Positions 3,194-61,173 of a stretch of 64,000 bases of DNA are shown piece after piece. The notes under the pieces were generated by a model. That model did not search any database and was not told where the DNA came from. It saw nothing but the letters and a program-made list of their open reading frames with translations. The stretch is taken from positions 57 through 64,056 of the forward strand of contig JAIVGO010000105.1 in assembly GCA_020201525.1 (NCBI GenBank), read 5' to 3'. Every line of letters begins with the position of its first letter. Within the stretch, counting starts at the first letter, position 1. Source of the DNA: Actinomycetota bacterium. Its GTDB lineage: Bacteria; Actinomycetota; AC-67. The position numbers and the translations under genes were made by a program.

Positions 3194-4640
3194 TTACGGC
3201 TCCACCGACGTCGTTTCCGGCAGCGTGATGGTGCGATTCGCCGCTTCGGCTGCCTTGCGAAGTTCCGCGATTGAGTCTCCGACGGCCGCGGCGAGATTCC
3301 ACAAGCCCGGCACCGTCTCTCGGCAGCTGATAAAGCCCCAGTTCATCGCGTCCATGTAGCTGAGAACGGTGATGTTGAGCGCCGCGCCGTCGAAGATCGG
3401 GCCGAGCGGGTACAGCGCGACGAGCTTCGCACCCCCGAAATACAGCGGTAAATTCGGCCCCGGGACGTTCGAGATCACGAGGTTGTGAATGACCGGGTGG
3501 CGTTCGGCAAGCCGCATCGACGAATACAGCCGCGCGGCGAGAGAAAACGTCGTCGGCGCGGCGAACTCCGCCCAGTTTTGGAGCATGTCGGCGCCGATCG
3601 CTTTGTGCTCTTCTTTCGCTCCTTTGTTGGCCTCGTGAATGTGCATGAGCCGCTCGACGGGATCTTCGATGTCGGTGGCGAGCGATGAAAACATCGCCGA
3701 CACGCGATTGGCGCTCGTGCTTTTGTCGCCGTCGTCGGGACGAACCGACACAGGGACTACGGCGAGAAGCGATTTGTCGGGCAACTCTTTGTTCTCCTCG
3801 AGATACCGCCTGAGCGCGCCTGCGGTGACCGCAAGCACAACGTCGTTCACCGTCGTGCCGAAAGCGTTCTTCACCATCTTCACGTCGTCGAGCGAGATGC
3901 GCGCGTAGGCGACTTTGCGGTGCGGCGTGATCGTCGTGTTGAAGGACGTGCGCGGAGCGGTGAGCGGCGTCGCCATGCCCGGTCGCGTCAAGCTCATTCG
4001 CGTTCGCACGAACTTCACGACCGAACCGATCGTTTGCGCGGCGACGCGAACCCCGGCCACCGGTTTCGTCAAACGATGCACGAGCGCCTTTCCGACGAGC
4101 TCGACGTCGGACGGCTTGCGTTCCGGCGTCCATTCATCCGGCTCAGGTCGCGGCGCCGGGTTCGGTTCGAGATCCAGAAGATGCACGAGCATGTTCGCGC
4201 CGGACACACCGTCGATCGTTGCGTGATGCATCTTGGCGACGATCGCTATGTAGCCGTTCTCCAAACCTTCCACGACCCACATCTCCCACAGCGGCTTCGT
4301 GCGGTCGAGCGGGCGGCTTGCCACGTCGCCTGCGAGCTCTGCGAGCTGGTCTTCGCTTCCCGGGGCCGGGCACCCGATGCGGCGCACGTGGTAGTCGAGG
4401 TCAAAGTGCGCATCCTCGACCCACACCGGATGTGCCAAGTTGAACGGCACGTGCGCCAGCCGGCGGCGGAACGGCGGAACGAGATGCAGCCGGCCCGCGA
4501 TGTGTCCCTTGAGCGTCTCAAATGAGTAGCCGCCCGGCATCGTCGACGGATCGACGACGATCGTCGCACACACGTGCATGTGCATCGTCGGCGTTTCGAA
4601 ATACAGAAACGAAGCGTCGAGTCCGCTGAGTCGCTGCATA
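3194..4640 (-). CDS. WS/DGAT-family acyltransferase (wax-ester synthase / diacylglycerol acyltransferase); start re-set to MQRLSGLDASFLYFE
   Basis: HHATIDGVSG (the HHxxxDG catalytic motif) and the N-terminal LDASFLYFE signature. GGAGG RBS 8 nt upstream of the ATG at 4640. Confidence 0.85.
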
Positions 4641-4714
4641 TGCCCCTCCTCAGGCCGCTTCGCCGGCTTGTTCGAGCGCGTCCCGAGTTGGCATTCACCC
4701 GGCCGGTTGGCAAA

Positions 4715-4728
4715 CTGACGGTGTGTCA
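4715..4728. promoter_or_regulatory. 14-bp palindromic motif CTGACGGTGTGTCA (TGAC-N5-GTCA) in the WS/DGAT-lipase divergent promoter; candidate TetR operator
   Basis: Identical 14-mer recurs at 17763-17776. Inverted repeat TGAC/GTCA. Overlaps the GTG start of the lipase. Confidence 0.5.
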
Positions 4729-5985
4729 CAAACCTATCTGATCCTCAGCATCATTGCTCTGGCGTCGACCGTCAATGCCCTCCGCCCGCTTCCGTGGACG
4801 TTCCTGTCGGTCCCCAGCTTCTTCGTCGCGTGGCTGACGACCGAGCTCGCCCCGCACCACCTCGCCGCGAATGTGGCCGTGAGCGCAGTGCTGATTTCGA
4901 TGGGAGCTCTGCACGGGCTCAAGGGCTGGCTGGCGCTCGGTTTTTCCCTCGTGACGGCAGCCGGGCTCATCGCGTTGATCGTCGAGTCGCAGCGAACCCG
5001 TGAGGTTGTCGAGCACGCGCTGCAAAAGGACTTGCGGGCCGACTATTTGTCGTGCATCGTGCCGGAGCGGGCGTCGCGATACGACTTGCGTGTGCCGTGG
5101 CGGCAGCTACTCCTTCCGTTCTATATGCGCCATCCCGACGTCGAACGCACCAAGAACGTGCCGTACGGCGAAGTTCGCCGACGAAACTTGCTCGACGTCT
5201 ACCGGCACAAGTCCCATCCCACCGGCGCGCCGACGCTGCTGCAGATCCACGGCGGGGGCTGGGTGATTTCGAACAAGAACCAGCAAGGGAAACCGATCAT
5301 GCTCCATCTCGCGTCGCGAGGCTGGGTGTGCTTCGCACCCAACTACCGGTTGTCGCCGCGTGCGATATGGCCGGCGCACATCGTCGACGTGAAGCGGGCC
5401 CTCGCGTGGATCCGTGAGCACGGCGCGGCCTACGGGGCCGATCCGGGGTTTGTCGTGGTGACCGGGGGATCGGCCGGCGGACACTTGGCGGCGCTGATGG
5501 CGCTGACGGCGAATGATCCCGCGTATCAGCCGGGATTCGAAACCGCCGACACGTCGGTACAAGCCGCAGTGCCGCATTACGGCGTGTACGACATCGCGAA
5601 CGAGACCGGCTTGAAAGGTCTCGCGCAGCGGCTCAAGATGCTAGAGGTCGTCGTGTGGAAGAAGAAGTACGCGGATGCGCAGGATGAGTTCCACCAGGCG
5701 TCGCCGCTGTTCCGCGTGCACGAGGGCGCGCCGCCGATGTTCGTGATTCACGGCGCGCACGACTCGCTCGTCCCGGTCGAAGAGGCGCGGCATTTCGTCG
5801 AGCGGTTGCGCGCCGTGTCGAAAGCACCGGTCGTGTACGCCGAGCTACCGGGAACGCAACATGCCTTCGATGTATTTCCGTCGATTCGGACCGCACACGT
5901 CGTCCGCGCGTTCGAGCGCTTCGTCGATTACGTCTATTGCACACGAAACGAGGCCGCTACCGCCGCTCCTCAGGTGCAACCGTAA
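4723..5985 (+). CDS. Membrane-anchored alpha/beta-hydrolase, HSL-family (HGGG) esterase/lipase
   Basis: HGGGW oxyanion motif, GGSAGG (GxSxG nucleophile) and HGAHDSLVP (catalytic His). N-terminal ~100 aa has predicted TM helices. GTG start at 4723, divergent from WS/DGAT. Confidence 0.85.
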   Translation: MSQTYLILSIIALASTVNALRPLPWTFLSVPSFFVAWLTTELAPHHLAANVAVSAVLISMGALHGLKGWLALGFSLVTAAGLIALIVESQRTREVVEHALQKDLRADYLSCIVPERASRYDLRVPWRQLLLPFYMRHPDVERTKNVPYGEVRRRNLLDVYRHKSHPTGAPTLLQIHGGGWVISNKNQQGKPIMLHLASRGWVCFAPNYRLSPRAIWPAHIVDVKRALAWIREHGAAYGADPGFVVVTGGSAGGHLAALMALTANDPAYQPGFETADTSVQAAVPHYGVYDIANETGLKGLAQRLKMLEVVVWKKKYADAQDEFHQASPLFRVHEGAPPMFVIHGAHDSLVPVEEARHFVERLRAVSKAPVVYAELPGTQHAFDVFPSIRTAHVVRAFERFVDYVYCTRNEAATAAPQVQP

Positions 5986-39342: not shown

Positions 39343-40845
39343 GTGACAAAGCGATACTCACTCGTCCTCGCACTCCTTACGGCGCTGTCGTCCCTCGGCG
39401 CCCAGATGGTGTCGCGCGCGACGCCGGAGAATTGCGGGCCGCTCGCGGCGCACCGAAGCGCCCCGGCGAGCGGAGTGCCCCGGACGGATACCGCCGACCG
39501 CCGCGGCATCCGCGCGTTCGCCGTGCAGTTCAAACAAGACCTGCGCTTCGTGGAAAGCTACGCGACGTACCGGCAAAAGATGCGGTGCATGATGGAGACA
39601 TACGTCGTGCCGAATCTCTCCCCCGACGTCCCGAACCTCGTGGTGTTCAACGAGGACATCGGGCTCATGACGCTTGCGATCGGCTCGCGCGGGAAGGCCG
39701 TTCGCGAATTCGCGAAGAGCCGAGCAGGAAAGGCGGGTGGCGACCAAAGTGGAGCGCCGGCGGGTGCGGCCGGAGCACTCGGGCTGGCGAATGGCGCGTA
39801 CGCAAGCCAAGTCGCGTACTACCAAGCCAAGTTCCCGGGGATCGACCCGCGCAAGCAAGTGTTCCTCGCTGCGACCGACACCTTCGCGCGAGCATTCTCC
39901 CAAACGTTCAGCGATATCGCGCGCGACTACGGCGTCTACGTGGTCGCGTCCAACAACCAAGGCCTTTTCGAAGAATCGACCGACCCGGCAGACGTTGCAG
40001 CACTCGGAGATCCCGATCTCCTTCCCGGCGTTTCAAGTGTGTACGTGGCGACGGGTCCGGAGGTGTGGAATCAAGTGTTCTTGTGGGGGCCGGAGGACAC
40101 TGCTCCTGATGCGCCGGCGCCGGAGCGGAATGTGCTTTTCCGAAACAAGAAGGTTCCGCTGACGGCAATTGAAAAGGATTTCATCGCGCTCGATGAAGGA
40201 CCGTCGACGGGTCCGGGTGCCGCAGCGAACATCGGCGCAGCAGCCATTCCCGGCAGCGACGCAAAGCTCGGATTCGCGACGAGCCTTCCCGCGTTCGTGT
40301 ACGGCTACAACATAGGTTCGCCTCGTCCCGCGGTCAACGCTTGCAGCAACACTGCCGTCTACTACATGCCGTGCATGAGCGATCTCGGCGTCAACGTCGT
40401 CGTCCAAGCAGAAGCGAACCCAGGACGATGGGCGTCCCTCGGCGGGCAAGCGGAGTGGCAACCGTTCGAGTGGATGGGTTCCACGTGGCGTGCCGTCGCC
40501 GATCCCACGGTGAACTTCCGGTACAACATCACACCGCACATGGTTGGGAACTTGCTCGACCTGGCCTTCGACGGACAGACGGCAATAACATCGCGCGACG
40601 GCGGCTACCCCGCTGCCCACTACGTGGGAAACGTTTCTTCGGAAGCCGAGAGCGAACAGGGAGATCCCGAATACAGCTTCTACATCGGCGACAAGGATCA
40701 GTTCGTCACGCTGGCGCCGTGGGTGAACAACACCGACGACCGCGAACTGTTGCGAGCGACATCGACCCGGCTCGCGCCGGCATCCGACGACCCACTGGAA
40801 AACGACTACCTGGAGACGGTGCTATGGGCAGATCTCGTGTTCTGA
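39343..40845 (+). CDS. Secreted protein with possible carbon-nitrogen hydrolase (nitrilase-superfamily) fold
   Basis: N-terminal signal peptide. Motifs VVFNEDIGL (Glu), LFRNKKVPL (Lys) and MPCMSD (Cys) are reminiscent of the nitrilase E-K-C triad, but the Cys motif is degenerate. Confidence 0.6.
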   Translation: MTKRYSLVLALLTALSSLGAQMVSRATPENCGPLAAHRSAPASGVPRTDTADRRGIRAFAVQFKQDLRFVESYATYRQKMRCMMETYVVPNLSPDVPNLVVFNEDIGLMTLAIGSRGKAVREFAKSRAGKAGGDQSGAPAGAAGALGLANGAYASQVAYYQAKFPGIDPRKQVFLAATDTFARAFSQTFSDIARDYGVYVVASNNQGLFEESTDPADVAALGDPDLLPGVSSVYVATGPEVWNQVFLWGPEDTAPDAPAPERNVLFRNKKVPLTAIEKDFIALDEGPSTGPGAAANIGAAAIPGSDAKLGFATSLPAFVYGYNIGSPRPAVNACSNTAVYYMPCMSDLGVNVVVQAEANPGRWASLGGQAEWQPFEWMGSTWRAVADPTVNFRYNITPHMVGNLLDLAFDGQTAITSRDGGYPAAHYVGNVSSEAESEQGDPEYSFYIGDKDQFVTLAPWVNNTDDRELLRATSTRLAPASDDPLENDYLETVLWADLVF

Positions 40846-42047
40846 CAATTCTCTTCGCAGCCGGCCTTCTGGCAACCGGTATGAGTGCGCGCGCGGCAAC
40901 GCCATCGAGCGGGATTGTGAGCTCGTCAAACGACGCATTGAGCTGGTCGGGCTCATTCGATGCGATCGTGACGCCGGGCATCCTCGCGGAGTGCAGCCTT
41001 GGCATCTGCGACAAGTTCACGTACACGGTGAACCTTGCTGAGAGCGCGACCGAGGAGATCGAAGTGGCAGTGCGCTGGCTGAGCGAATCCACCGACACGG
41101 ACCTCGACCTGTTCGTCACCGATGAAGAAGGCGCGGTGGTCGGCCAGTCGACGGGTCTCGATTCCTCGGCGGAAGTCGCGCACATTCCCGTGTCCAACGG
41201 CACGTTCGACGTGTGGGTAGCGCCGGTCACGCTCGACGAGCCCTTGCAATACAGCGGCCGCATCGAAGTCGAGTCGCCGCCGGCCGTCGAACCCGTGCGC
41301 GATCTGCTGCCGAACATGACGACGCTCGAGCCGCACACACTCATGATCGCCACCGGCGAGTACTACATCGATCCGGTCCACAACGAAGCCGTCAGCTGCT
41401 ATCCCGAAGAGATCACCGATCCAGACGAGCAAACGCCGACGCGCTGCTTACGCTTCGATCAAATCGCCTACAACCAAGGCGCGGGCCCGCTCGAGCTTCG
41501 GTTCAATCCGATCGATCCGAGCAATGCCGGATCACCCCGGTTGCGCCAGCGGATTTATTCGAGCGACGGCACGTATCGTGAAGTCACCGCCGAAGACGCG
41601 ATGGAGTTTCACCCCATCCACGGGCACTGGCATTACTCGGGATTCGGTCTCGGGCGTTTGTACGTCGACGGCAACCCGACGCCGGTCCGTCAGAGCAACA
41701 AGAAAGGCTTCTGCTTGATCGACGTCGACTTCGAAGGATGGGGCGCAAAGGGAAACGGGCCACGCAGCTATTCAGCGCCGGGCTGCCTCGTTCCCGATCC
41801 GGATGAAGGCGGCGACGTGGTCATGGGAATCGATAACGGCTGGGCCGATGTCTACAACTGGTTCCTCGCCGACCAATTCATCGACATCACAGGACTCGCG
41901 GACGGGGTCTACCGCCTTGAAATCATCGCGGACCCGGGCAACACGCTCGTTGAATCTGATTACACGGACAACGCGCGGTCGACGTGGATCTGTATCAGCG
42001 GCACGACGGTGAACAAGGTGGCGGGTCCGGACGCAGCGTGTGTGTGA
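40824..42047 (+). CDS. Secreted lysyl-oxidase (LOX) family protein (copper amine oxidase with LTQ-cofactor-type catalytic domain); start re-set to MGRSRVLTILFAAGL
   Basis: Signal peptide; HPIHGHWHY (the HxHxH copper site, compare LOX WHSCHQHYH); KKGFCLIDVD (compare KASFCLEDT); QFIDITGLADGVYRLEIIADPGNTLVESDYTDNARSTWICI (compare [39 protein letters not shown]). 22-bp overlap with the previous gene. Confidence 0.75.
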   Translation: MGRSRVLTILFAAGLLATGMSARAATPSSGIVSSSNDALSWSGSFDAIVTPGILAECSLGICDKFTYTVNLAESATEEIEVAVRWLSESTDTDLDLFVTDEEGAVVGQSTGLDSSAEVAHIPVSNGTFDVWVAPVTLDEPLQYSGRIEVESPPAVEPVRDLLPNMTTLEPHTLMIATGEYYIDPVHNEAVSCYPEEITDPDEQTPTRCLRFDQIAYNQGAGPLELRFNPIDPSNAGSPRLRQRIYSSDGTYREVTAEDAMEFHPIHGHWHYSGFGLGRLYVDGNPTPVRQSNKKGFCLIDVDFEGWGAKGNGPRSYSAPGCLVPDPDEGGDVVMGIDNGWADVYNWFLADQFIDITGLADGVYRLEIIADPGNTLVESDYTDNARSTWICISGTTVNKVAGPDAACV

Positions 42048-45023
42048 TCACACAGCGGCCGGCTGCTCCTCGGACGAGCCGAGATACGCCGCGATGACGA
42101 CATCGTCCCGCTGAACGTGCGCGGGTAGCCCTTCGGACAGAAGCTTGCCGCGGTTGACGACGTACATGTAATCCGAAACCGACGTCACCATGTGCACGTC
42201 GTGCTCGATGAGCAGGATCGACGTGCCGAGGTTGTCACGCACGTGATACAGGTGCTCGGCAAGCTTCGCGGTCTCGGTGTTGTCGAGACCAGACGCCGGC
42301 TCGTCAAGCATAACCAGCTTCGCGCCGCTGACGAGCGCGCGCGCGAGCTCGACCATGCGCAGCGTTCCGAGCGGCAATCCTGCGACCGGCCGGTCGGCGA
42401 TGTCGTCGAGGTCGAGCAAGTGGATGACGCCGGCCACTTTCTCGCGCGCGGCGCGCTCACCGCGAAGTGCGGCCGACGTGACGGCGACGTGTGCGAGCAC
42501 ACCGGTGGGATTTTGCAAATGCGTAGCGACGAGCAGGTTCTCGAAGATCGAGAGCTGATGAAAGAGTTGGACGACTTGGAACGTGCGGCCGACACCGAGC
42601 CCGGCGCGCTTGTGCACCGGCCAGTCGGTGACGTCATGGTCGAAGATCCGCACGCGCCCACCCGTCGGCACCACGAGACCGGAGATCGCATTGAACGTCG
42701 TCGTTTTCCCAGCGCCGTTCGGGCCGATGAGACCGACGATTTCCCCTTCCCGAACCGACAACGACACATCGTCGACTGCAACGAGCCCGCCGAAGCGAAC
42801 CGTTAAGCCCTCGACGTCGAGGACGGCGAGGTTTTCAGTGCGCTCCACCGACGGCCGTCGCATCGCCGTTTGTTTCTTCGAAGAACCATTGGTCGGCGCA
42901 TCGATGTGTGGAGCGAAGGCCGGACCGATACGAGCCCGGGTGCGTCGGCGCGGCGAGAGATTCATCCGTCGGGCGAGAGCCTGTGGAATGCCGGCAAGAC
43001 CACCGGGGTACATCAGCAAAACTCCGGCGAGCAGCCCGGCACTCACGAGCTCCAGGCCGCCGGGAACGGTGACGCGATAAAAGAGCTCGCCCAAGCCGGC
43101 GAACAAGATCGCTGCGCCGATTGCTCCGCCAAGACTGCTCACTCCGCCGACGACCGCAACGGCGAGATAGAACAGCGATTTGTCGAACCCGAATTGTGCC
43201 TCGGCATTTACCGATCCTGCTCCGGTGATCAACAAGTTGCCGGCGATTCCGGCGAGCATTCCCGAAATGGCGAACGCCAGGAGCTTGTACCGAGTGACGT
43301 CGATACCGAGTGAGGCTGCCGCCGTCTCGGAGCCGCGGACCGCGAAGAACGCACGGCCGGTTTTCGAGTCTCGCACATTGAAGAGCGCCCACAGCACGGC
43401 TGCGGCAACGGCAAGCGCAACGTAATAGAACGTCCTTCGCTCGGCGAAATCGAAGAATGGAAATGCGCCCGATCGCCCGATCGCTTTCACGCTGATCGAA
43501 GTGCTTCCTCCCGCGCCCCCGACCAACCAGGGTGACTTGAACAGATATTCGTTCGACATCCAGAGCACGATCAGCGTCGCCACGGCGAGATACAGGCCGC
43601 GCACCCTCAGCGCGACGAGCCCAACAACGGCGGCAAATCCTGCCGACGCCACCGAGACGAGTGGAAGGTTGAGCGGAAACTGCAAACCGGCGCGATTGCT
43701 CAAAAGCGCAGTAGTGAATGCACCGATGCCCAGCAGCGCCGCCTGCGCGAGTGAGATCTGACCGACCCATCCCGTGAGGAGAACGAGCGAGGCGGCGATA
43801 AGCAAGATGATGCACGCTTGAATCGCGTCGCCGAGCAATGAAAACGGTGCGCCGATAAACGGGCCGATGATAAGGCCGGCAAGAACGATCAGGATGAGAA
43901 CCGCTTTCGCAAGCCGCATGCGGAACAGCCGAACGACCAAACGAGCTACAGCACGACCGGCCCTTCCGGCGCTCGGCAGTAAGGCCCCAACCACAACCAA
44001 CGACATCGCGACCCATGCGCGGTGAAAAAGGAGCGCACCGACCACGGCGCCGGCGCCGGTAAGGCGGGCGAGAGTGCGGCGAAAGCTTGATCCGAGGTGC
44101 AGTCGGGATTGGGCCGGCTCGTCCAACGCCGGCGAGGCGCTGCTTCCGACGAAACGTTCGCCGCGGAGTGCCATGACGACAAGCGCAACAAGCGTCAAGA
44201 CAAGCTGCGGCGCGCCGAGCTGCGTCGCGAATCCGCCGATGCCCGGTATAAGGGCGATCGCCGGCACCATGCCGAGCACGATCCCGACGACGGCAGATCC
44301 AGTCGCCGCACCCGGAAGGCTGCTGAGTCCGCCGAGCAACGCCGCAACAAACGCCGGCAAAACGATGAGGGTCAAGTTGATCGGCTCGAGCACCGTGACG
44401 GGCGCGAGAAGAATGCCCGCCAACGCGGCAAGTGCTCCTCCGAGCGCCCACGCAAGTCGCGTCGTCGCGTCGGGATCGATTCCCATCAACGACGCAGCCC
44501 GGCGGTTGTCGGCCGCCGATCGCATCGCAAGCCCCACCTCGGTGAACCGGAAGAGAGCGAACAGCAAAGCGACGCACGTAAAAGCGACCGCCAAAAGACC
44601 GATCTGCCCGAAACGAAGGATCGACGCGCCGACGTGAATGCCGCCCTCCGGAAAGAGCCGGACGGCCCCCCGTGGTGTCGTGCCCCACAATTTCACCGCC
44701 AGGCTGAGCAAGATGCCGAGCGCGGCAATTGTGCCTACTGTTTGGGCCGTCGGCCCTTGACGCCGCAATGCGCGTACAAACACTCGCTCGATGATGATCC
44801 CGATCAGGGCACCGAACGCGACTCCAAGGACGAGCGCTGCCACAGCCGGCACGTGGTGCTGCACCAGTGAGTACGTCACAAACGCGGGAACCATCGCCAT
44901 CGTGCCGTGCGCGAGATTCAACACGCGCGACGATTGGTGAATGACGACGATGCCAACCGCGAATAACGCAAAGGCCCCGACGAGCGGTAGCGAAAGAAGG
45001 AAGTAGACCGGAACCTGGCTCAT
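42048..45023 (-). CDS. Branched-chain-amino-acid-type ABC importer, triple fusion LivH-like permease + LivM-like permease + LivG-like ATPase (991 aa)
   Basis: Two successive permease domains (about 1-290 and 330-640) followed by Walker A GPNGAGKTT, a signature-like LGTLRMVELARAL, and Walker B LVMLDEP. Confidence 0.85.
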   Translation of the reverse strand: MSQVPVYFLLSLPLVGAFALFAVGIVVIHQSSRVLNLAHGTMAMVPAFVTYSLVQHHVPAVAALVLGVAFGALIGIIIERVFVRALRRQGPTAQTVGTIAALGILLSLAVKLWGTTPRGAVRLFPEGGIHVGASILRFGQIGLLAVAFTCVALLFALFRFTEVGLAMRSAADNRRAASLMGIDPDATTRLAWALGGALAALAGILLAPVTVLEPINLTLIVLPAFVAALLGGLSSLPGAATGSAVVGIVLGMVPAIALIPGIGGFATQLGAPQLVLTLVALVVMALRGERFVGSSASPALDEPAQSRLHLGSSFRRTLARLTGAGAVVGALLFHRAWVAMSLVVVGALLPSAGRAGRAVARLVVRLFRMRLAKAVLILIVLAGLIIGPFIGAPFSLLGDAIQACIILLIAASLVLLTGWVGQISLAQAALLGIGAFTTALLSNRAGLQFPLNLPLVSVASAGFAAVVGLVALRVRGLYLAVATLIVLWMSNEYLFKSPWLVGGAGGSTSISVKAIGRSGAFPFFDFAERRTFYYVALAVAAAVLWALFNVRDSKTGRAFFAVRGSETAAASLGIDVTRYKLLAFAISGMLAGIAGNLLITGAGSVNAEAQFGFDKSLFYLAVAVVGGVSSLGGAIGAAILFAGLGELFYRVTVPGGLELVSAGLLAGVLLMYPGGLAGIPQALARRMNLSPRRRTRARIGPAFAPHIDAPTNGSSKKQTAMRRPSVERTENLAVLDVEGLTVRFGGLVAVDDVSLSVREGEIVGLIGPNGAGKTTTFNAISGLVVPTGGRVRIFDHDVTDWPVHKRAGLGVGRTFQVVQLFHQLSIFENLLVATHLQNPTGVLAHVAVTSAALRGERAAREKVAGVIHLLDLDDIADRPVAGLPLGTLRMVELARALVSGAKLVMLDEPASGLDNTETAKLAEHLYHVRDNLGTSILLIEHDVHMVTSVSDYMYVVNRGKLLSEGLPAHVQRDDVVIAAYLGSSEEQPAAV

Positions 45024-45029
45024 GCGCCG

Positions 45030-46517
45030 CTACGTCGGAATGTCCTTGCCGGCATCTAGATCCTCGAGCTCGACGCGTTCGTCGCGCCATCCGGAGAACC
45101 GGTCTTTGTACTGGATCGACCACGCTTGCATGCGCGTATTGGCGAAGTGATCCCCGGCTCGCCACGACAGTGGGGGCGTCAGTCCCGTATCCAGTGTCAT
45201 GTTGTTCAAGACGGCAATCAGCCGTTCGCGGGTGAGTTGCGGCCCGACGTCTTGAAGCGCCTTCACCATCATTGTCATACCGAGATATGCGCCTTCCACG
45301 AACGTGTTGGTGAAGTCGGCGCTGCTCCCAGTTTGCATAGCGTTGACATAATCGCTGACTGCGCGCCTGCCAAGATTCGCACCGATGGGCGGGTTGTACC
45401 CGGTCCACAGCCACAGCCCGTTGCACCGCGTCCCGCATTGCTGCGCAAAGCTACGCGTGAACAGCGGTTGGGGCCCGCCCATCCGGATGCCATCGGAAGG
45501 GCTCAGCGCGCCGGCCGTCAGCCAGCTGATCGCCGTCGCCGGCTCGAGCAACAGAGCGACGAAGTCGCACTTCGGCGCGCTCAAACACGCATTATTGAAA
45601 ACCTGGATTTGCGGACCATAGCTCACCTGCGAATTCGCAATCCCACAGAAACGCTCTTTGCACTGTGCGTTCTTGAACGGGTTGGAAAAGCCGGGAACCT
45701 CTGCGTGTGTCACGCGCTTCACTGCGGCGTTGAACGCGACCGCTCCCTCGAGGCCGAAGTGATACGTGCTCTCATACACAATGCCGAAGTGCCGCGCCCC
45801 GGCGTCGTACGCCTGCTGCACCATGATGTGCATCGCCGACATGGTCGACGCTGCTACCGGCCAGATATACGGATCAAGGTACTGGTGGATGAGCATCCCA
45901 TCAGAGCCGACGACAGGAACGCCCTTCTTCTTGAGATAGCCCGCGTTGGAGACGTTCTGCAGACCCTCAGACGAGGGAACGACCGCGAGGGCGAAGACCT
46001 TCTTGTCCTCGACCAGATTCCGGATGTAGTCACCGCCGAGGTCGAACTTCCATCCGTCGTCTTTCAAGAGAAGACTAAGCTTGCGTCCGCACACGCCGCC
46101 GGTGCGGTTCACTGCGTTCGCGACGGCCGTCATACCGTATCGCGCGTCGTGGAGGAAGCTCGCGCCGATTCCCGTATTGACGATCGTCGCGCCGAGCTTG
46201 ATCTCGCTTCCCGTGACGCCGACGTCCGTTGCCCCCCCGTTTCGACCGGCTGCGCATTGAAAGGAAGCCGGCGCCGGCGGCAACACCGACGTCTTCTGCA
46301 GGTCGTTCGGCGAAGACGAGTCGACCGGCGCGACGGATCCGAGCTTTCCACCTGATTGCGTAACTTCTCGAACCACGGAGCTCGTCGGCTTCTTCGGGGG
46401 AGCAACGACGACGGCAGAGGCAGCGATGGCTACCCCGGACAGCACCGCTAACGTCAGCCACGCGGGCGAAATGCGGTAATGATCACCCGATCGACGGAAC
46501 GGCAGCCGTACCTTCAC
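45030..46517 (-). CDS. ABC transporter substrate-binding protein (Liv/amide-urea family) with N-terminal membrane anchor; GTG start overlapping the upstream stop (GTGA)
   Basis: Periplasmic-binding-protein type I pattern. The GTG at 46517 shares GTGA with the stop of the 848-aa surface-protein gene. The tool's ATG start at 46586 is 23 codons further upstream, inside that gene. Confidence 0.8.
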   Translation of the reverse strand: MKVRLPFRRSGDHYRISPAWLTLAVLSGVAIAASAVVVAPPKKPTSSVVREVTQSGGKLGSVAPVDSSSPNDLQKTSVLPPAPASFQCAAGRNGGATDVGVTGSEIKLGATIVNTGIGASFLHDARYGMTAVANAVNRTGGVCGRKLSLLLKDDGWKFDLGGDYIRNLVEDKKVFALAVVPSSEGLQNVSNAGYLKKKGVPVVGSDGMLIHQYLDPYIWPVAASTMSAMHIMVQQAYDAGARHFGIVYESTYHFGLEGAVAFNAAVKRVTHAEVPGFSNPFKNAQCKERFCGIANSQVSYGPQIQVFNNACLSAPKCDFVALLLEPATAISWLTAGALSPSDGIRMGGPQPLFTRSFAQQCGTRCNGLWLWTGYNPPIGANLGRRAVSDYVNAMQTGSSADFTNTFVEGAYLGMTMMVKALQDVGPQLTRERLIAVLNNMTLDTGLTPPLSWRAGDHFANTRMQAWSIQYKDRFSGWRDERVELEDLDAGKDIPT

Positions 46518-49060
46518 GACTGCGTCAGCCTTCGCAAGACCCGGCGCCGGGCCGCGAAAAAGACGGGCGCGACAAACAAAACCCAAAGCCCAACCGATCG
46601 CGCGAACATTCCTCCTTCACCGGCGACGAGAACCTTCCATCCATGTCCGATCGTCCGGACGACGCGCTCAACGATGCTTTCCTTCGGCGGCGTCACAACC
46701 GGCCGCTCCAGTTGAGGCACCTCAATCTTCGGCACAACCACCGGCGGCAGTGGTACTGCGGGCGGCTCGACAACGGCCGGCACGATCCGAATCGACGTCG
46801 CGTCACCCTTCGTCGCCGCGAAGTCGAAAATGAGACGGGAGGCGAGCGCGCGGTCGTTCACGAATGTCAGGCGCAGCGCCGGCACTTGGGTCTCGGTCTT
46901 CTCTTGATTGTTGATCACAATGTCTTCTTGCTGTTGCCAAGGGTCGCGAATCGCGTGACCATGTGCGCCACCTTTGGTCTTCAGCACATCGGCTGAGGGC
47001 AACTCGACCCGAACTTGCGCGCCGAGCTGCGATGAGATTCCCTCGGCGACTTTAGACGCGTCGCACGATTCGGCTCCGCCGCAACTGTAGGTGTCCGTCT
47101 CCACGCCTTCGAAAATACGCTCGTACGTCGCCGACGATCCGCCGGGCTTACCGGTCGCGCCGACGTTGATCTCCGATCGCACAAAAGCAATGGAGACTCC
47201 ACCGGTGATACGTATGTTGCGCGCCTCGGCAAAGACGGTTCCGACGAGCTTGCCTGTCGCGTCGCGGTGCAGCTCCGTTCCGCTCAGCGATGATCCGATC
47301 GAAATGAGGTTCGGGATCGAAACGCCGCCGAATTCGGCACTCGACCTCGCCAGAGACTTCTCGAGAGAACACGCCCCTGTCGCATCGCCGTCGCCCTGCG
47401 GCGCTTCGCCGTCGAGCGCGCGTGCGTGCACGTGCGGGCTCGAAGGCGTGCCGCCGAAGTCGCCGCACTGGGCTTCCTCGTATCGCCAATCAGGAAGCGA
47501 CACGGATTTCTTTATCGTGTCGTAATCGGAGACGGTGTTCGCGTCGCGATCCACGGCAACGGCTTCCGTGCTCGACTCGTCGTTGCTCAAATGGGTTCGC
47601 CGGATCCGCGCGAAATACAAGTTGCGGTCTCCGTCCTTCAATCCGGTGGCGTTGCCGAAGGCACCCCAGTAATCGCCCCCAAACGAGAAGACGTTTTGCA
47701 ACGCGGCATTCACGCCGCCGATGCGTTCGATGCGCAGCCCGAACGCTTGCGCGTCGGCGGCAAATTGCGGTTCTTCGGTCGTGAGTGAATCCAGCCGGGT
47801 GAAATCCGTGGTTCCTCCCGGCGCAAACTCGTCGTCCGAAAGCGTGTCGCGGAAGACCGTGTAGACCCACGTGGAGTTCGGTCCCCGGATGGGCACGACG
47901 ATCGAAGAGTTGAACGGGACGGTGACGACCGCCCCGAGGTTCGGACCGTATCCGAAGCTCGTGGCTTGCGGTATCTCGTAACCTCTGTCCCCGCTCACGA
48001 GCACGGCACCGTCGATGTCCACGTACATCCTTCCGTTCTCCGCGTTGAGCCCTGCTCCCAGAACGTTGAGGTTTCCAGCCGCGATCTGACCGACGAACAC
48101 TTTGTGAATGCCGTCGAAAACCCACACCGATTGCGCCGGGGAATTTGGATCGGATGCCACCAACACGAGGCGCTTCGCTTTTTGATCTGCGTACACGTCG
48201 CCTCGCGCGTAGCTCCCGGGGAGGAAATAGAGCTGTTGGACGCTCGTGTCCTTGCGTTCGACCGCAGCGACGGCTTGGACGCCCGGAGCGACAACCGACT
48301 GCGCTTGCGTCGCGCCACATCCAACGATGACGGAGTCCGGCGTTGTAAGTGCTTCCGCTTGCGTAAAGTAGGTGATTGCCGACTGGCATCCGCGCAGAAC
48401 AACCGGTCCCCAGGTCGCATCTCCCCCGACCCGGTCAATCTCCACGACGAACACGCCGGTCATCCGAGGCACGTCGGCCGACGGGAGTACACGAGCCTTC
48501 AGCCCCGGAACAGCCTGTCCGATCAGGAGGATCCGGTTTTGACTTGGAATCGTCATCCCGAGAGGGCGAAGCCCAGGCGGGAACACCGTTGCCAGCGGCA
48601 GTTCCGACGCAACGTCGAACGAGTCCAAATTGATCGTTACGAGCGTCGGCAACGTCGTGTTGTCCATGGATTCCGATGTCGGATACGTGACGAGAAGCAA
48701 ACGGCGCGCGGCTTCGTCGATTGCGAGAACGCGCGGCTTTCCCCCGCCACCACTTTGTTGCCAGTAGGACGGGTACGTCACGCTGCGAACCTTACGAAGA
48801 TCATTGCCGTCGTACGCCGTGATCCATAGAGGGCGATCGAGGTCGCCGCCGACTTCGAGCAAGCGCCGCGCATGGTTGTCCACGACGAGCTGGCTTCCCG
48901 AGGTGAGAGGAATCGTACCGACGGCATGCAGTCCGGGTTGGGCGGCATTCGCCGCTACGGGAAAGACGGGAATCAGTGCAAGAACAGCGATGACCGCCGC
49001 GAGACGAATCCCGCGGCAGCTTCGCCGTTGCGCAAGCCACGCCGAGCGCAACTCACGCAT
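46514..49060 (-). CDS. Large secreted/cell-surface protein (848 aa): signal peptide, beta-propeller-like N-terminal region, Pro-rich stalk, C-terminal TM anchor with basic tail
   Basis: Signal peptide MREL...PVFPVAANA. Repeated YVTN-like segments. PAVVEPPAVPLPPVVVPKIEVPQLERPVVTPP linker. C-terminal VGLWVLFVAPVFFAARRRVLRR. Confidence 0.7.
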   Translation of the reverse strand: MRELRSAWLAQRRSCRGIRLAAVIAVLALIPVFPVAANAAQPGLHAVGTIPLTSGSQLVVDNHARRLLEVGGDLDRPLWITAYDGNDLRKVRSVTYPSYWQQSGGGGKPRVLAIDEAARRLLLVTYPTSESMDNTTLPTLVTINLDSFDVASELPLATVFPPGLRPLGMTIPSQNRILLIGQAVPGLKARVLPSADVPRMTGVFVVEIDRVGGDATWGPVVLRGCQSAITYFTQAEALTTPDSVIVGCGATQAQSVVAPGVQAVAAVERKDTSVQQLYFLPGSYARGDVYADQKAKRLVLVASDPNSPAQSVWVFDGIHKVFVGQIAAGNLNVLGAGLNAENGRMYVDIDGAVLVSGDRGYEIPQATSFGYGPNLGAVVTVPFNSSIVVPIRGPNSTWVYTVFRDTLSDDEFAPGGTTDFTRLDSLTTEEPQFAADAQAFGLRIERIGGVNAALQNVFSFGGDYWGAFGNATGLKDGDRNLYFARIRRTHLSNDESSTEAVAVDRDANTVSDYDTIKKSVSLPDWRYEEAQCGDFGGTPSSPHVHARALDGEAPQGDGDATGACSLEKSLARSSAEFGGVSIPNLISIGSSLSGTELHRDATGKLVGTVFAEARNIRITGGVSIAFVRSEINVGATGKPGGSSATYERIFEGVETDTYSCGGAESCDASKVAEGISSQLGAQVRVELPSADVLKTKGGAHGHAIRDPWQQQEDIVINNQEKTETQVPALRLTFVNDRALASRLIFDFAATKGDATSIRIVPAVVEPPAVPLPPVVVPKIEVPQLERPVVTPPKESIVERVVRTIGHGWKVLVAGEGGMFARSVGLWVLFVAPVFFAARRRVLRRLTQS

Positions 49061-59366: not shown

Positions 59367-60521
59367 CTACCGTCGCCGAGTCTCGGACCAGGGCTTGTTT
59401 GCGTCGGGCTCTAGTTCGCGAGGAAGCCCCAGAATGCGCTCCCCGATGACATTACGCAATATCTCCGACGTCCCGCCACCGATCGTCAATGCCGGCGAAA
59501 AGACAAAACCTTGCGCCCACCATCCTGCATCCGCACCGATCGGTCCCGAATCGGCCAGCATTCCCGCGGGTCCCGCCAAATCTTTTGCAATACGGAAAAT
59601 GTCGCGACCGTGCGGATCGGCGAGCGCTTTGCGCACCGACGCAGCCGGCGCGGATCCGCCGGTGATAGCCGCGCCGACCATGCGCAAGCCGTGCACGCGA
59701 AGGATTTCGCCCTCGATGTACAGTTGCGCGAGCTTCTGACGCATCACGAGATCCGGCGCACCGCCGCGGTCTCGTACAAGATCGATGAGATCTTGCGCGG
59801 TCGGCCCCCAACCCCATTGCGCGCCGCCGCGCGACAACGTGACACGCTCGTTCGCAAGCGTGTCTTTCGCAAGCTCCCAGCCGCCGTTCTCCGGACCGAT
59901 GAGGTTACTTGCAGGCACGCGCACATCGGTAAAGAACACGTTGTTGAAGTTATGCCACCCGCTCGCGTCGACGATCGGCTGGATCTCGACACCGGGCGAC
60001 TTCATGTCGACGATGAAGTACGAGATACCTGCGTGCTTCGGCACATCGGCATTCGTTCGCGCAAGCAATATCCCGAACGCAGCGTCGTGCGCCAACGACG
60101 TCCACGTTTTCTGGCCGTTGACGATGTACACGTCGCCTTCCCCGACGGCGCGAGTCGATGCATTCGCGAGATCTGATCCTGCTTCAGGCTCACTGAACAG
60201 CTGGCACCAGATTTCCTCGCCGCTCAGCATCGGCGGGATATAGCGATTCTTCTGCTGATCGGTGCCGTGAGCGACGAGGATCGGACCGCAATGTCCCGTG
60301 CCGATCGGGTTGATGGGGCGCTGCACGCCGGCCTTCTTCAGCTCGTCGTCGATGATGAGCTGCTGCATCGGCTCGGCGTCGAGACCCCACGGCCGCGGCC
60401 AGTGCGGCACCACGTACCCCGCTCCGGCAAGATCCTTGCCGCTTGGATTCGGATGCGCCGCGAGCCAGGCTCGAACCTCCAGCCGTCTGGAATCGTCCTG
60501 AGGAGGAAGCTCGAGATCCAT
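59367..60521 (-). CDS. Acyl-CoA dehydrogenase divergent from kstR (FadE34-like context); start re-set to MDLELPPQDD
   Basis: ACAD pattern. Divergent arrangement with the kstR ortholog and a shared operator. Confidence 0.85.
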   Translation of the reverse strand: MDLELPPQDDSRRLEVRAWLAAHPNPSGKDLAGAGYVVPHWPRPWGLDAEPMQQLIIDDELKKAGVQRPINPIGTGHCGPILVAHGTDQQKNRYIPPMLSGEEIWCQLFSEPEAGSDLANASTRAVGEGDVYIVNGQKTWTSLAHDAAFGILLARTNADVPKHAGISYFIVDMKSPGVEIQPIVDASGWHNFNNVFFTDVRVPASNLIGPENGGWELAKDTLANERVTLSRGGAQWGWGPTAQDLIDLVRDRGGAPDLVMRQKLAQLYIEGEILRVHGLRMVGAAITGGSAPAASVRKALADPHGRDIFRIAKDLAGPAGMLADSGPIGADAGWWAQGFVFSPALTIGGGTSEILRNVIGERILGLPRELEPDANKPWSETRRR

Positions 60522-60555
60522 ATGAACCTCTTTATACGTCGTGCTGCAGAAAAAT

Positions 60556-60569
60556 TGCAACAGGTTCTA
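60556..60569. promoter_or_regulatory. KstR operator (TGCAACAGGTTCTA) in the fadE-kstR divergent region (autoregulation site)
   Basis: Perfect TnnAACnnGTTnnA match, 14 bp upstream of the kstR start. Confidence 0.75.
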
Positions 60570-60582
60570 GAATGGCGCTACC

Positions 60583-61173
60583 GTGGCGACCCAAGTGGAA
60601 ACGCTCCTGACGGAGAAACAATCCGCGAGGCGCCGGCGCGTGATCAAGGCGGCAATGGTCCTTGCCGCAGAAGGCGGGTACGACGCCGTGCAAATGCGCG
60701 ACGTCGCGGCGCGGGCGCGCGTGGCACTCGGCACGCTCTACCGCTACTTCCCCTCGAAAGATCAACTTCTGGTCGCTGCGCTCGGAGAATGGACGGGCGA
60801 GTTGCAGCAGCGACTCGTTACGCGGCCGCCGCGCGGCAGTACTCCGGTCGAGCGCGTGACGGACGTCTTGCGCCGGGCCACTCGTGCGCTCGAACGAGAG
60901 CCGCAGCTGACGGCGGCACTCGTCACGGCGCTGTCGTCGCTCACATCTGAAGATCCGAAAGCGCTCGAGGATGCGTCCAGCGTGTATCTCGTGATGAGCG
61001 AGATCATCGGGCACGCGATGGACGACGGCGACGTGCACGACCGAGAAGCAACGGTACGCGTGCTCGGCCAAGTGTGGTTTTCGGCGCTCGTCGCTTGGGT
61101 GCGCGGCTGGGGTCCCGACGGGCAGATGTTCAAGGACCTCGAAGCGGCAGTGCGCTTGTTGCTCCCGCACTGA
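60583..61173 (+). CDS. kstR: TetR-family repressor KstR ortholog (master regulator of sterol uptake and side-chain/ring A-B catabolism)
   Basis: GGYDAVQMRDVAARARVALGTLYRYFPSKDQLLVAAL and ...VWFSALVAWVRG...AVRLLL closely parallel M. tuberculosis KstR (GGYEAVQMRAVADRADVAVGTLYRYFPSK...). A perfect TnnAACnnGTTnnA site lies in its own upstream region. Confidence 0.9.
   Translation: MATQVETLLTEKQSARRRRVIKAAMVLAAEGGYDAVQMRDVAARARVALGTLYRYFPSKDQLLVAALGEWTGELQQRLVTRPPRGSTPVERVTDVLRRATRALEREPQLTAALVTALSSLTSEDPKALEDASSVYLVMSEIIGHAMDDGDVHDREATVRVLGQVWFSALVAWVRGWGPDGQMFKDLEAAVRLLLPH

What the first reader, a model, noticed from the sequence alone, without database searches (positions are those of the whole stretch)
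39343..42047. Secreted lysyl-oxidase homolog operonic with a secreted nitrilase-superfamily-like protein inside a steroid-catabolic regulon
The 40824-42047 product carries the LOX copper site HxHxH (HPIHGHWHY). It also has the FCL(E/I)D box and the long C-terminal QWIDITD...ESDYTxN...C motif block of animal lysyl oxidases (LTQ-cofactor enzymes), behind a signal peptide. Bacterial LOX homologs are rare and functionally uncharacterised in most lineages. Here it overlaps by 22 bp, and is presumably co-translated with, a secreted 500-aa protein with nitrilase-like E/K/C motifs. The pair sits between KstR-controlled operons and next to Liv-type importers. One speculation is an extracellular amine-oxidising / C-N-cleaving module, for example for conjugated bile acids or polyamine-like substrates, feeding an amino-acid-type ABC importer.
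Basis: partly seen in the sequence, partly recalled or inferred. Interest (0 to 1): 0.8.

Follow-up and report, generated by a model that had tools for sequence, protein, structure and literature searches.

The report
Exported lysyl oxidase paired with serine-type nitrilase-fold enzyme
Two overlapping genes in an uncultured actinobacterium encode an exported lysyl-oxidase homologue and an exported, unannotated nitrilase-fold protein whose catalytic cysteine is a serine; in other bacteria this protein usually sits next to a flavin monoamine oxidase, which gives a first testable clue to what bacterial lysyl oxidases do.

Summary
Gene A (39343-40845, 500 aa) and gene B (40824-42047, 407 aa) overlap by 22 nt, and both have signal-peptide-like N-termini.

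B is a lysyl-oxidase family member:
- It scores above the Pfam threshold, and its model's best fold match is human LOXL2.
- The copper histidines and the cofactor Lys/Tyr pair are invariant.
- NCBI already annotates it as lysyl oxidase family.

The main result is comparative. In 80 species-level genome loci, A's neighbour is a Tat-exported MAO-type flavin amine oxidase in 45, and A carries or adjoins a glycerophosphodiesterase domain in 33. LOX takes the oxidase slot in one clade containing the window, and sits beside A-family genes in two other arrangements.

Best reading: an exported hydrolase-plus-amine-oxidase module in which LOX replaces the flavoenzyme. The substrate is unknown. The steroid or bile-acid link is not supported, because the pair sits in unrelated contexts elsewhere.

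The parts
39343..40845 (+). Gene A: exported 500-aa divergent nitrilase-superfamily (CN-hydrolase fold) protein, serine type; annotated 'hypothetical protein'
39343..39417 (+). Signal-peptide-like N-terminus of A (MTKRYSLVLALLTALSSLGAQMVSR); the cleavage site is not determined
   Evidence: Sequence read directly. Low-confidence N-terminal helix in the model. No signal-peptide predictor was available.
39652..39654 (+). Glu104 of A (VVFNED): first catalytic Glu of the nitrilase tetrad
   Evidence: Follows strand 98-101. Aligns to Nit2 Glu43 through the bridging clade. Invariant in 120/120 close homologues and in 89/89 locus-encoded copies.
40150..40173 (+). Lys270 ... Glu277 of A (KVPLTAIE): catalytic Lys and probable second Glu
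   Evidence: K270 aligns to Nit2 K112. Both residues are invariant. The Glu2 assignment is inferred from its position (Lys+7).
40279..40284 (+). Thr313-Ser314 of A (GFATSLPAF): Ser314 occupies the nucleophile-elbow position that is Cys in all characterised nitrilase-superfamily enzymes
   Evidence: It directly follows strand 308-312. S314 aligns to Ser268 of the bridging clade, which aligns to Nit2 Cys153. Five related clusters have GIATCQDAY-type Cys in the same column. Ser is invariant in 120/120 close homologues.
40342..40374 (+). Cys334 and Cys344 of A: invariant in the A clade but not at the nucleophile position; probably a disulfide (inferred)
   Evidence: C334 lies in an insertion that the bridging clade lacks. 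C344 lies just after the MP that matches the 'FPE'-motif region. Conservation.
40824..40845 (+). 22-nt overlap between the A stop and the B start, with GGAG upstream: translational coupling
   Evidence: The same 22-nt overlap occurs in L081, L085 and L089.
40824..42047 (+). Gene B: exported lysyl-oxidase family protein (407 aa)
40824..40895 (+). Signal peptide of B (MGRSRVLTILFAAGLLATGMSARA|A)
   Evidence: Sequence read directly, with an AxA motif at residues 22-24.
40896..41273 (+). N-terminal beta-sandwich of B, PPC / collagenase collagen-binding-domain-like
41610..41633 (+). His263, His266, His268, His270 of B (HPIHGHWH): copper site
   Evidence: Aligns to LOXL2 HDCHRHYH. Invariant in 31 family members.
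41700..41702 (+). Lys293 of B: the lysine of the LTQ cofactor pair
   Evidence: Aligns to the Lys of LOXL2 'GHKASFCLED'. Invariant.
41853..41855 (+). Tyr344 of B: the tyrosine of the LTQ cofactor pair
   Evidence: Aligns to the Tyr of LOXL2 'WDMY'. Invariant.

Best explanation
A and B form a translationally coupled, exported two-enzyme cassette.

B is a copper/LTQ amine oxidase of the lysyl-oxidase family. Here it fills the role that a Tat-exported MAO-type flavin amine oxidase fills in most relatives of this module. This is a non-orthologous displacement.

A is a divergent nitrilase-superfamily hydrolase with a Glu-Lys-Glu-Ser active site instead of Glu-Lys-Glu-Cys. The most likely flow is:
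1. Outside the cytoplasm, A cleaves an amide (or ester) bond in an amine-bearing compound, probably lipid-head-group-like, and so exposes or releases a primary amine.
2. B oxidises that amine to an aldehyde, releasing NH4+ and H2O2.

Shown: the fold and family of both proteins, the conserved catalytic residues, the Cys-to-Ser change, the conserved adjacency of A with amine oxidases of two unrelated folds, and the GDPD fusions.

Inferred: that A is catalytically active, that A acts before the oxidase, and the substrate class. Ethanolamine-type head groups or N-acyl amines are suggested by the GDPD fusions, by one ceramidase-A-LOX operon, and by the small-amine preference of the one characterised prokaryotic LOX.
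For: B is a LOX:
- PF01186 above threshold and sequence match to LOXL2.
- His266/268/270, Lys293 and Tyr344 invariant in 31 homologues.

A is nitrilase-fold:
- The A1 profile finds a sister clade that scores above the PF00795 threshold.
- hhalign of A against the sister clade gives 100% probability; the sister clade against Nit2/Nit3/NitFhit gives 97.8%.
- Glu104, Lys270, Glu277 and Ser314 are invariant in 120/120 homologues. Cys-type relatives carry Cys in exactly the Ser314 column.

Module evidence:
- Of 80 species-level genome loci, 45 have a PF01593 amine oxidase with a TAT signal within 1.2 kb of A, and 34 of these are directly downstream on the same strand.
- That oxidase is MAO/putrescine-oxidase-like.
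- LOX occupies the same slot in the window, L001, L081, L082/83, L085, L086-88 and L089.
- The A proteins of these loci form one clade in an NJ tree, which fits a single replacement.
- Two further arrangements exist: L096 (an A-like gene at 35% identity directly upstream of LOX) and L093 (a GDPD-A fusion convergent with LOX, 19 nt apart).
- GDPD is fused or adjacent in 33 of 80 loci.
- A ceramidase lies 3 nt upstream of A-LOX in L085.
- The archaeal HTU-LOX oxidises many small primary amines, taurine best (PMC6452851).
Against: - No biochemical data exist for any member of the A family or for any LOX of this clade.
- Cys-to-Ser mutants of nitrilase-superfamily enzymes are generally inactive (general knowledge; several C-to-S/A variants appear among the PDB hits). 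A could therefore be a binding protein rather than an enzyme.
- 26 of 72 untruncated A loci have no oxidase within 1.2 kb (one of them, L020, has an FAO 3.6 kb downstream), so the coupling is not obligatory.
- B carries a collagen-binding-domain-like module, which could point to a polymeric or protein substrate.
- The ceramidase link rests on 2 loci only.
- The NJ tree has no support values.
- The residue mapping rests on profile alignments and predicted secondary structure, not on inspected coordinates.
Confidence: 0.5

Rival explanations
1. B works like animal LOX, oxidising lysine side chains of a secreted or cell-surface protein to cross-link it. A is an unrelated or only loosely related neighbour.
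For: B has the complete LOX catalytic set. Its N-terminal beta-sandwich resembles clostridial collagen-binding domains. An unpaired LOX homologue (L084) lies 4 kb from a collagen-repeat protein.
Against: The 22-nt overlap and the A-LOX adjacency are conserved down to 44% LOX identity and recur in two other arrangements. A's usual partner is a small-molecule MAO-type oxidase. No collagen-like gene was noted in the window, although it was not systematically scanned. Grau-Bove et al. judged cross-linking of bacterial collagens unlikely (PMC4448552).
Confidence: 0.15
2. A is a catalytically dead pseudo-enzyme that has lost its Cys. It binds the substrate and hands it to the oxidase, or it docks or stabilises the oxidase outside the cell.
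For: The nucleophile Cys is replaced by Ser throughout the clade. C-to-S variants of family members are used as inactive substrate traps (PDB titles). The genes are tightly translationally coupled.
Against: Glu104, Lys270, Glu277, Thr313 and Ser314 are invariant in 120/120 homologues, which is the pattern expected for a working active site. A partners with two oxidases of unrelated fold and cofactor, which argues against a specific docking or maturation role. A is also fused to an apparently intact GDPD enzyme, with the HRGG...ENT motif present.
Confidence: 0.15
3. The order is reversed: the oxidase acts first, and A processes its nitrogen-containing product, or detoxifies an inhibitor such as an aminonitrile.
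For: Nitrilase-superfamily enzymes act on nitriles, amides and carbamoyl groups (one search hit list). LOX enzymes are sensitive to 3-aminopropionitrile, as HTU-LOX is (PMC6452851).
Against: Amine oxidases release aldehyde, ammonia and H2O2, which leaves no C-N bond for A to cleave. The gene order is A (often GDPD-A) first and oxidase second in 34 of 45 flavin-oxidase loci.
Confidence: 0.08
4. The pair belongs to the surrounding sterol/lipid catabolic regulon and processes conjugated bile acids or similar compounds for uptake by the adjacent Liv-type transporter.
For: The window neighbours are ChsH2-, ChsE- and Ltp2-like genes, acyl-CoA ligases, a P450, an enoyl-CoA hydratase and two Liv-type ABC systems. 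The upstream gene on the same strand ends only 36 nt before A. One other pair-bearing contig (L087) also has a Peripla_BP_6 gene about 700 nt downstream of LOX.
Against: No KstR or KstR2 operator lies near the pair. None of the window's flanking genes accompanies the pair or the A family elsewhere. The transporter is convergent with the pair, not co-transcribed.
Confidence: 0.07

Closest known systems
Animal lysyl oxidases (LOX/LOXL2; PDB 5ze3)
   Different: Identity is about 22%. B has no SRCR domains or pro-peptide; a PPC-like beta-sandwich is present instead. It sits in an operon with a hydrolase-fold protein, and its context points to small or lipid amines rather than collagen or elastin.
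[quoted passage not shown]
   Same: Both are prokaryotic LOX-domain proteins. HTU-LOX shows that such enzymes can oxidise many small primary amines. Its native role is described as 'cryptic'.
   Different: It comes from a different lineage, and no partner gene has been reported. The present pair offers a genomic context that HTU-LOX lacks.
Nitrilase-superfamily amidases (Geobacillus pallidus amidase 2plq, Nesterenkonia amidase 3hkx, H. pylori CN hydrolase 6mg6) and the secreted branch vanin/biotinidase
   Different: A has Ser314 where all characterised members have the nucleophilic Cys. It carries a helical insertion of about 90 residues (106-196), an insertion holding two invariant cysteines, and a C-terminal extension. 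Pfam PF00795 does not detect it.
MAO-type flavin amine oxidases (PF01593; monoamine oxidase 8p84, MAO-A/B, putrescine oxidase, cyclohexylamine oxidase)
   Same: They catalyse the same net reaction as LOX, occupy the same gene slot next to A-family genes, and are also exported (by Tat).
   Different: Their fold and cofactor (FAD) are unrelated. None is present in the window, where LOX replaces it.
Pseudomonas aeruginosa SphBC periplasmic sphingosine oxidation (PMC11398299)
   Same: It is a precedent for a Tat-exported periplasmic oxidase that removes a lipid amine outside the cytoplasm. In that bacterium a sphingosine-induced secreted ceramidase supplies the amine (PMC5150637 abstract).
   Different: No homology was tested. 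SphC is predicted to be FMN-linked and works with a cytochrome c. There is no nitrilase-fold partner.

Membership tests
Lysyl oxidase family (PF01186) | Significant match to the family profile | tested here: met
   32.7 bits against a gathering score of 20.4, E 7.5e-8. phmmer to LOXL2 at E 2e-5.
Lysyl oxidase family (PF01186) | HxHxH copper-binding histidines | tested here: met
   His266, His268 and His270 align to LOXL2 H-R-H-Y-H and are invariant in 31 homologues.
Lysyl oxidase family (PF01186) | Lys and Tyr that form the LTQ cofactor | tested here: met
   Lys293 aligns to the Lys of 'HKASFCLED' and Tyr344 to the Tyr of 'WDMY' in LOXL2. Both are invariant. That these LOXL2 residues are the LTQ pair is from memory.
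Lysyl oxidase family (PF01186) | Catalytic-domain fold | tested here: met
Lysyl oxidase family (PF01186) | Copper-dependent amine oxidase activity and a formed LTQ cofactor | not testable with these tools
   Needs protein expression, phenylhydrazine or redox-cycling staining, metal analysis and an H2O2-coupled assay.
Nitrilase superfamily (CN hydrolase, PF00795) | Alpha-beta-beta-alpha sandwich fold | tested here: met
Nitrilase superfamily (CN hydrolase, PF00795) | Direct match to the family profile | tested here: not met
   A gives no Pfam or NCBIfam hit. The A1 profile finds no PDB nitrilase. Direct hhalign to the Nit branch reaches only 5% probability. A transitive link exists through the sister clade: PF00795 at 31.0 and 26.5 bits against 23.2, and hhalign at 100% and 97.8%.
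Nitrilase superfamily (CN hydrolase, PF00795) | Catalytic Glu and Lys (plus a second Glu) | tested here: met
   Glu104 and Lys270 align to Nit2 Glu43 and Lys112 and are invariant, as is Glu277. The Glu277 assignment is by position only.
Nitrilase superfamily (CN hydrolase, PF00795) | Nucleophilic Cys at the elbow after the central strand | tested here: not met
   Ser314 occupies this column. Cys-type relatives read GIATCQDAY against GFATSLPAF here. Ser is present in 120/120 close homologues and in 88/109 representative clusters that cover the column.
KstR-controlled steroid catabolic regulon | KstR or KstR2 operator upstream of the operon | tested here: not met
   TnnAACnnGTTnnA matches twice in 64 kb (expected 0.46), at 45673 and 60556, neither near 39343. 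The KstR2 motif has no match. The consensus motifs were recalled from memory.
KstR-controlled steroid catabolic regulon | Conserved co-location of the pair with steroid catabolic genes | tested here: not met
   The pair's flanks differ in L001, L081, L082, L085, L086 and L089. The window's flanking proteins have no homologues next to A elsewhere, apart from generic hits.

The most novel reading that the evidence does not exclude
The A family is a large, unrecognised, exported branch of the nitrilase superfamily that has switched its nucleophile from Cys to Ser yet remains catalytic. It has 683 clusters at 50% identity. With a GDPD domain and an interchangeable amine oxidase (flavin MAO-type or copper LOX), it would form a previously undescribed extracytoplasmic pathway. 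That pathway would strip and oxidatively deaminate amine head groups of lipids, such as ethanolamine-type glycerophosphodiesters, N-acyl amines or sphingoid bases. This would give bacterial lysyl oxidases their first defined physiological role.
Probability: 0.3. Interest if true: 0.8.

Novelty: new variant of a known kind. Interest (0 to 1): 0.6.

Why it matters
Prokaryotic lysyl oxidases have been known from genomes since 2015, and their function is still called enigmatic or cryptic (PMC4448552, PMC6452851).

Here a LOX occupies the same operon slot as an exported MAO-type flavoenzyme, next to one conserved hydrolase-fold partner. That turns the open question into a concrete experiment:
- Find the amine that the partner (and its frequent GDPD fusion) releases.
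- Test both oxidases on that amine.

Separately, a nitrilase-superfamily clade with an invariant Ser in place of the nucleophilic Cys is unexpected. I know of no characterised member of the superfamily that lacks that Cys, and one targeted full-text search found no description of such a clade. If it is active, it widens the chemistry of that fold. It also adds a family of several hundred clusters that Pfam and NCBIfam currently leave unannotated.

Tried and rejected
- **Sequence searches for A.** Direct Pfam, NCBIfam and PDB sequence or profile searches found nothing, only chance Bcl-2-like hits at E about 0.4.
- **First attempt at the nucleophile.** Direct hhalign of A against a Nit-branch alignment reached only 5% probability and suggested Cys334 as the nucleophile. 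I rejected this once the bridging clade gave a confident alignment that placed Ser314 there.
- **Canonical CN-hydrolase gene in fetched loci.** A regex search found none to use as a reference. I obtained reference sequences from PDB alignments, using a recalled NIT2 sequence as bait.
- **Gene callers.** My first two simple callers mis-called the window. The third reproduced it.
- **Regulatory scans.** Promoter and terminator scans around the pair gave matches at chance level. KstR and KstR2 motif scans gave nothing near the pair.
- **Conserved flanking genes.** The window's SBPs, permease, ECH, thioesterase, P450 and 848-aa protein showed only generic ABC and P450 hits elsewhere.
- **Ceramidase as a general partner.** It occurs in only 2 loci.
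- **Literature.** Searches for PDB 8p84 / a characterised bacterial MAO and for a Ser-type nitrilase clade found nothing relevant.
- **Model coordinates.** I could not inspect them, so the Cys334-Cys344 disulfide and the active-site geometry remain inferences.
Full report
**1. What is in the sequence**

Two co-directional ORFs occupy 39343-42047.
- Gene A runs 39343-40845 (GTG start, 500 aa).
- Gene B runs 40824-42047 (ATG start, 407 aa).
- The B start lies 22 nt before the A stop and has GGAG 6-9 nt upstream.

Both lengths equal those of the proteins NCBI predicts for this contig, a 67-kb contig of an uncultured Actinomycetota MAG. There A is 'hypothetical protein' and B is 'lysyl oxidase family protein'. 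Both N-termini have the charged, hydrophobic and small-residue layout of Sec signal peptides. B has an AxA motif at residues 22-24. No signal-peptide predictor was available, so export is read from the sequence.

**2. Gene B is a lysyl-oxidase family member**

- It scores 32.7 bits on PF01186 (gathering score 20.4) and matches human LOXL2 (PDB 5ze3) at E 2e-5.
- In that alignment HPIHGHWH pairs with HDCHRHYH. Lys293 pairs with the Lys of GHKASFCLED, and Tyr344 with the Tyr of WDMY. From memory, these are the copper ligands and the LTQ pair of LOXL2.
- In an alignment of 31 bacterial homologues (36-72% identity), His263/266/268/270, Lys293, Tyr344 and four cysteines are invariant.

B is a LOX. 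Bacterial LOX homologues are already described, with unknown function (PMC4448552; PMC6452851).

**3. Gene A is a nitrilase-superfamily protein, but of a serine type**

A has no Pfam, NCBIfam or PDB sequence hit, even when searched as a 32-sequence profile. Its AlphaFold model is confident (pLDDT 85, pTM 0.88).
- Foldseek returns nitrilase-superfamily enzymes for all 50 hits listed; 156 hits reach E<=1e-3.

A sequence bridge also exists.
- A profile search of 1.84 billion cluster representatives finds 683 clusters at E<=1e-3.
- Among them is a sister clade of 820-870 aa proteins, with an A-like domain followed by BNR-propeller repeats. Two of the five members scanned score above the PF00795 threshold (31.0 and 26.5 bits against 23.2) and two more score just below it.
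- hhalign links A to this clade at 100% probability (E 5e-74). It links that clade to Nit2/Nit3/NitFhit at 97.8% (E 7e-13).

Through these alignments:
- Glu104 (VVFNED) equals Nit2 Glu43.
- Lys270 (RNKKVPL) equals Nit2 Lys112.
- The nucleophile Cys153 of Nit2 is matched by Ser314 (GFATSLPAF).

These residues sit directly after predicted strands 98-101, 264-269 and 308-312, as expected for this fold. Five related clusters carry the canonical Cys in the very same column, for example GIATCQDAY.

Glu104, Lys270, Glu277, Thr313, Ser314, Cys334 and Cys344 are invariant in 120/120 close homologues and in 89/89 locus-encoded copies. Cys334 lies in an insertion absent from the sister clade. Cys344 lies just after the MP that matches the 'FPE'-motif region. 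With Cys31 and Cys82, they are more likely disulfide partners of an exported protein (inference).

The 'E/K/C' reading is wrong in its last letter.

**4. Genomic context: the main finding**

I fetched 80 species-level genome loci encoding A relatives (48-64% identity), from Nevskiales gammaproteobacteria, Binatia and many Actinomycetota.
- Clustering their neighbours showed one dominant partner directly downstream on the same strand. It is a protein with a TAT signal and PF01593 (232 bits). Its closest solved relatives are monoamine oxidases, putrescine oxidase and cyclohexylamine oxidase.
- By tblastn census, 45 of 80 loci have this flavin amine oxidase within 1.2 kb of A. In 34 it lies directly downstream on the same strand.
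- 33 loci have a GDPD glycerophosphodiesterase domain fused or adjacent upstream of A.
- 8 loci are truncated, and only L001 has LOX.

Metagenome contigs of the window's nearest relatives all carry the A-LOX pair. These are L081, L082/83, L085, L086-88 and L089. Three of them have the same 22-nt overlap, and LOX identity falls as low as 44%.

In a neighbour-joining tree of A domains, the LOX-paired proteins form one clade, sister to the largest group of flavin-oxidase-paired clades (no support values).

A LOX-centred scan of metagenomes found two more arrangements with A-family genes outside that clade:
- L096 has an A-like gene (35% identity) ending about 20 nt before the LOX-homologous region.
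- L093 has a GDPD-A fusion (53% identity) convergent with LOX, with stops 19 nt apart.
Both retain Glu, Lys, Glu and Ser. Six other LOX loci with adequate flank lack A.

Thus A-family proteins associate with amine oxidases of two unrelated folds and cofactors. The simplest account is shared chemistry: a common amine substrate or product. A shared maturation or docking role is less likely.

**5. The window's own context is not conserved**

The neighbours are sterol-side-chain-type beta-oxidation genes (ChsH2-like hydratase domains, split acyl-CoA dehydrogenases, an Ltp2-like thiolase), acyl-CoA ligases, a P450, an enoyl-CoA hydratase, a 4HBT-like protein and two Liv-type ABC systems.
- The KstR operator consensus matches twice in 64 kb (0.46 expected). 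The matches are inside a binding-protein gene and between a TetR gene and an acyl-CoA dehydrogenase at 60556. Neither is near the pair. The KstR2 motif has no match.
- In every other contig the pair has different flanks: CAP-domain and response-regulator genes, a TPP enzyme, a ceramidase and others.
- The window's flanking proteins do not recur beside A elsewhere.

The pair therefore behaves as a portable two-gene cassette. The steroid, bile-acid and Liv-importer parts of the first interpretation are unsupported.

**6. Mechanism proposed**

Shown:
- Both proteins are exported.
- B has a complete LOX active site.
- A has a nitrilase-fold active site with Ser in place of Cys, under strict conservation.
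- A is translationally coupled to B.
- A's slot-mate is otherwise an MAO-type oxidase.
- A is often fused behind a GDPD domain with intact HRGG...ENT motifs.

Inferred:
- A hydrolyses an amide or ester bond of an amine-bearing compound outside the cell.
- The oxidase then converts the freed primary amine to an aldehyde, ammonium and H2O2.

Hints to the substrate class are indirect.
- GDPD enzymes release head-group alcohols such as ethanolamine from glycerophosphodiesters (general knowledge).
- One LOX-type operon starts with an alkaline ceramidase, and another locus has one 5.5 kb away.
- Amidase-signature genes lie next to some GDPD-A loci.
- HTU-LOX, a characterised prokaryotic LOX, prefers small amines such as taurine.
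- P. aeruginosa uses a Tat-exported periplasmic oxidase against sphingosine.

I put 0.5 on the coupled hydrolase-oxidase module and much less on any particular substrate.

**7. Rivals**

- Protein-lysine cross-linking by B, with A incidental (0.15).
- A as an inactive binding or docking partner (0.15).
- Reversed order of action, or inhibitor detoxification (0.08).

Evidence for and against each is given in the Rival explanations section.

**8. Novelty and score**

B alone is a new member of a known, already annotated family. Three things appear to be undescribed:
- The Ser-type nitrilase-fold clade, which Pfam and NCBIfam do not cover.
- Its conserved pairing with exported amine oxidases.
- The recurrent substitution of LOX for the flavoenzyme.

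One targeted full-text search found nothing. This gives prokaryotic LOX a testable physiological context. I rate it a new variant of a known kind, with interest 0.6.

Noticed in passing
L085 3126-5852: A 908-aa neutral/alkaline ceramidase (PF04734) ends 3 nt before the A-LOX pair in a close relative, giving a ceramidase-A-LOX operon. A ceramidase fragment also lies 5.5 kb downstream of A in L059.
   Followed up: partly
L084 327-1679 and 5056-5874: An unpaired LOX homologue (43% identity to B) has a Ferritin_2-like gene directly upstream and a collagen-repeat (PF01391) protein about 4 kb away.
   Followed up: no
proteins P0315, P0316, P0326, P0330, P0381: A sister clade of the A family consists of 820-870 aa proteins with an A-like N-terminal domain (motif ISKDAWMPD, also Ser-type). 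In those scanned with Pfam, BNR/sialidase-like propeller repeats follow. This clade bridges A to Pfam CN_hydrolase.
   Followed up: partly
proteins P0289, P0312, P0325, P0344, P0383: Five representative clusters related to A keep a canonical Cys (GIA[ITV]CxDA[FWY]) in the column where A has Ser314. They may represent the ancestral state of the Cys-to-Ser switch.
   Followed up: partly
L004, L059, L063, L073 (genes +1 to +3 of A): An amidase-signature enzyme (PF01425, 324 bits for the representative from L073) lies just downstream of A in the four loci. All four have GDPD-A, and three of them lack a flavin oxidase.
   Followed up: no
window 46514-49060 (-): An 848-aa protein with a signal peptide and a C-terminal hydrophobic anchor has no Pfam hit. 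It heads the minus-strand Liv-type ABC operon.
   Followed up: no
window 42048-45023 (-): A single 991-aa ORF fuses two BPD_transp_2 permease domains with an ABC ATPase (LivH+LivM+LivG-like). Its stop codon directly abuts the LOX stop codon (42047/42048), leaving no intergenic space between the convergent genes.
   Followed up: no
window 60556-60569: A KstR-like operator match, TGCAACAGGTTCTA, lies in the 22-nt gap between a divergent acyl-CoA dehydrogenase gene (59367-60560, -) and a TetR gene (60583-61173, +).
   Followed up: no
window 3194-4729 (-): A wax-ester synthase / diacylglycerol acyltransferase (WS/DGAT, 292 bits) is present. This fits a lipid-storing actinobacterium.
   Followed up: no
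L093 7568-9085 (-): A 505-aa ORF with no Pfam hit lies directly upstream of the GDPD-A fusion that is convergent with LOX.
   Followed up: no
L003 4028-4708 and equivalents in L005, L009, L010, L029, L046: A gene of about 220-270 aa is divergently transcribed immediately upstream of A in Nevskiales loci. The L003 copy is TetR-family by Pfam. It is a candidate ligand-sensing regulator of the module.
   Followed up: partly
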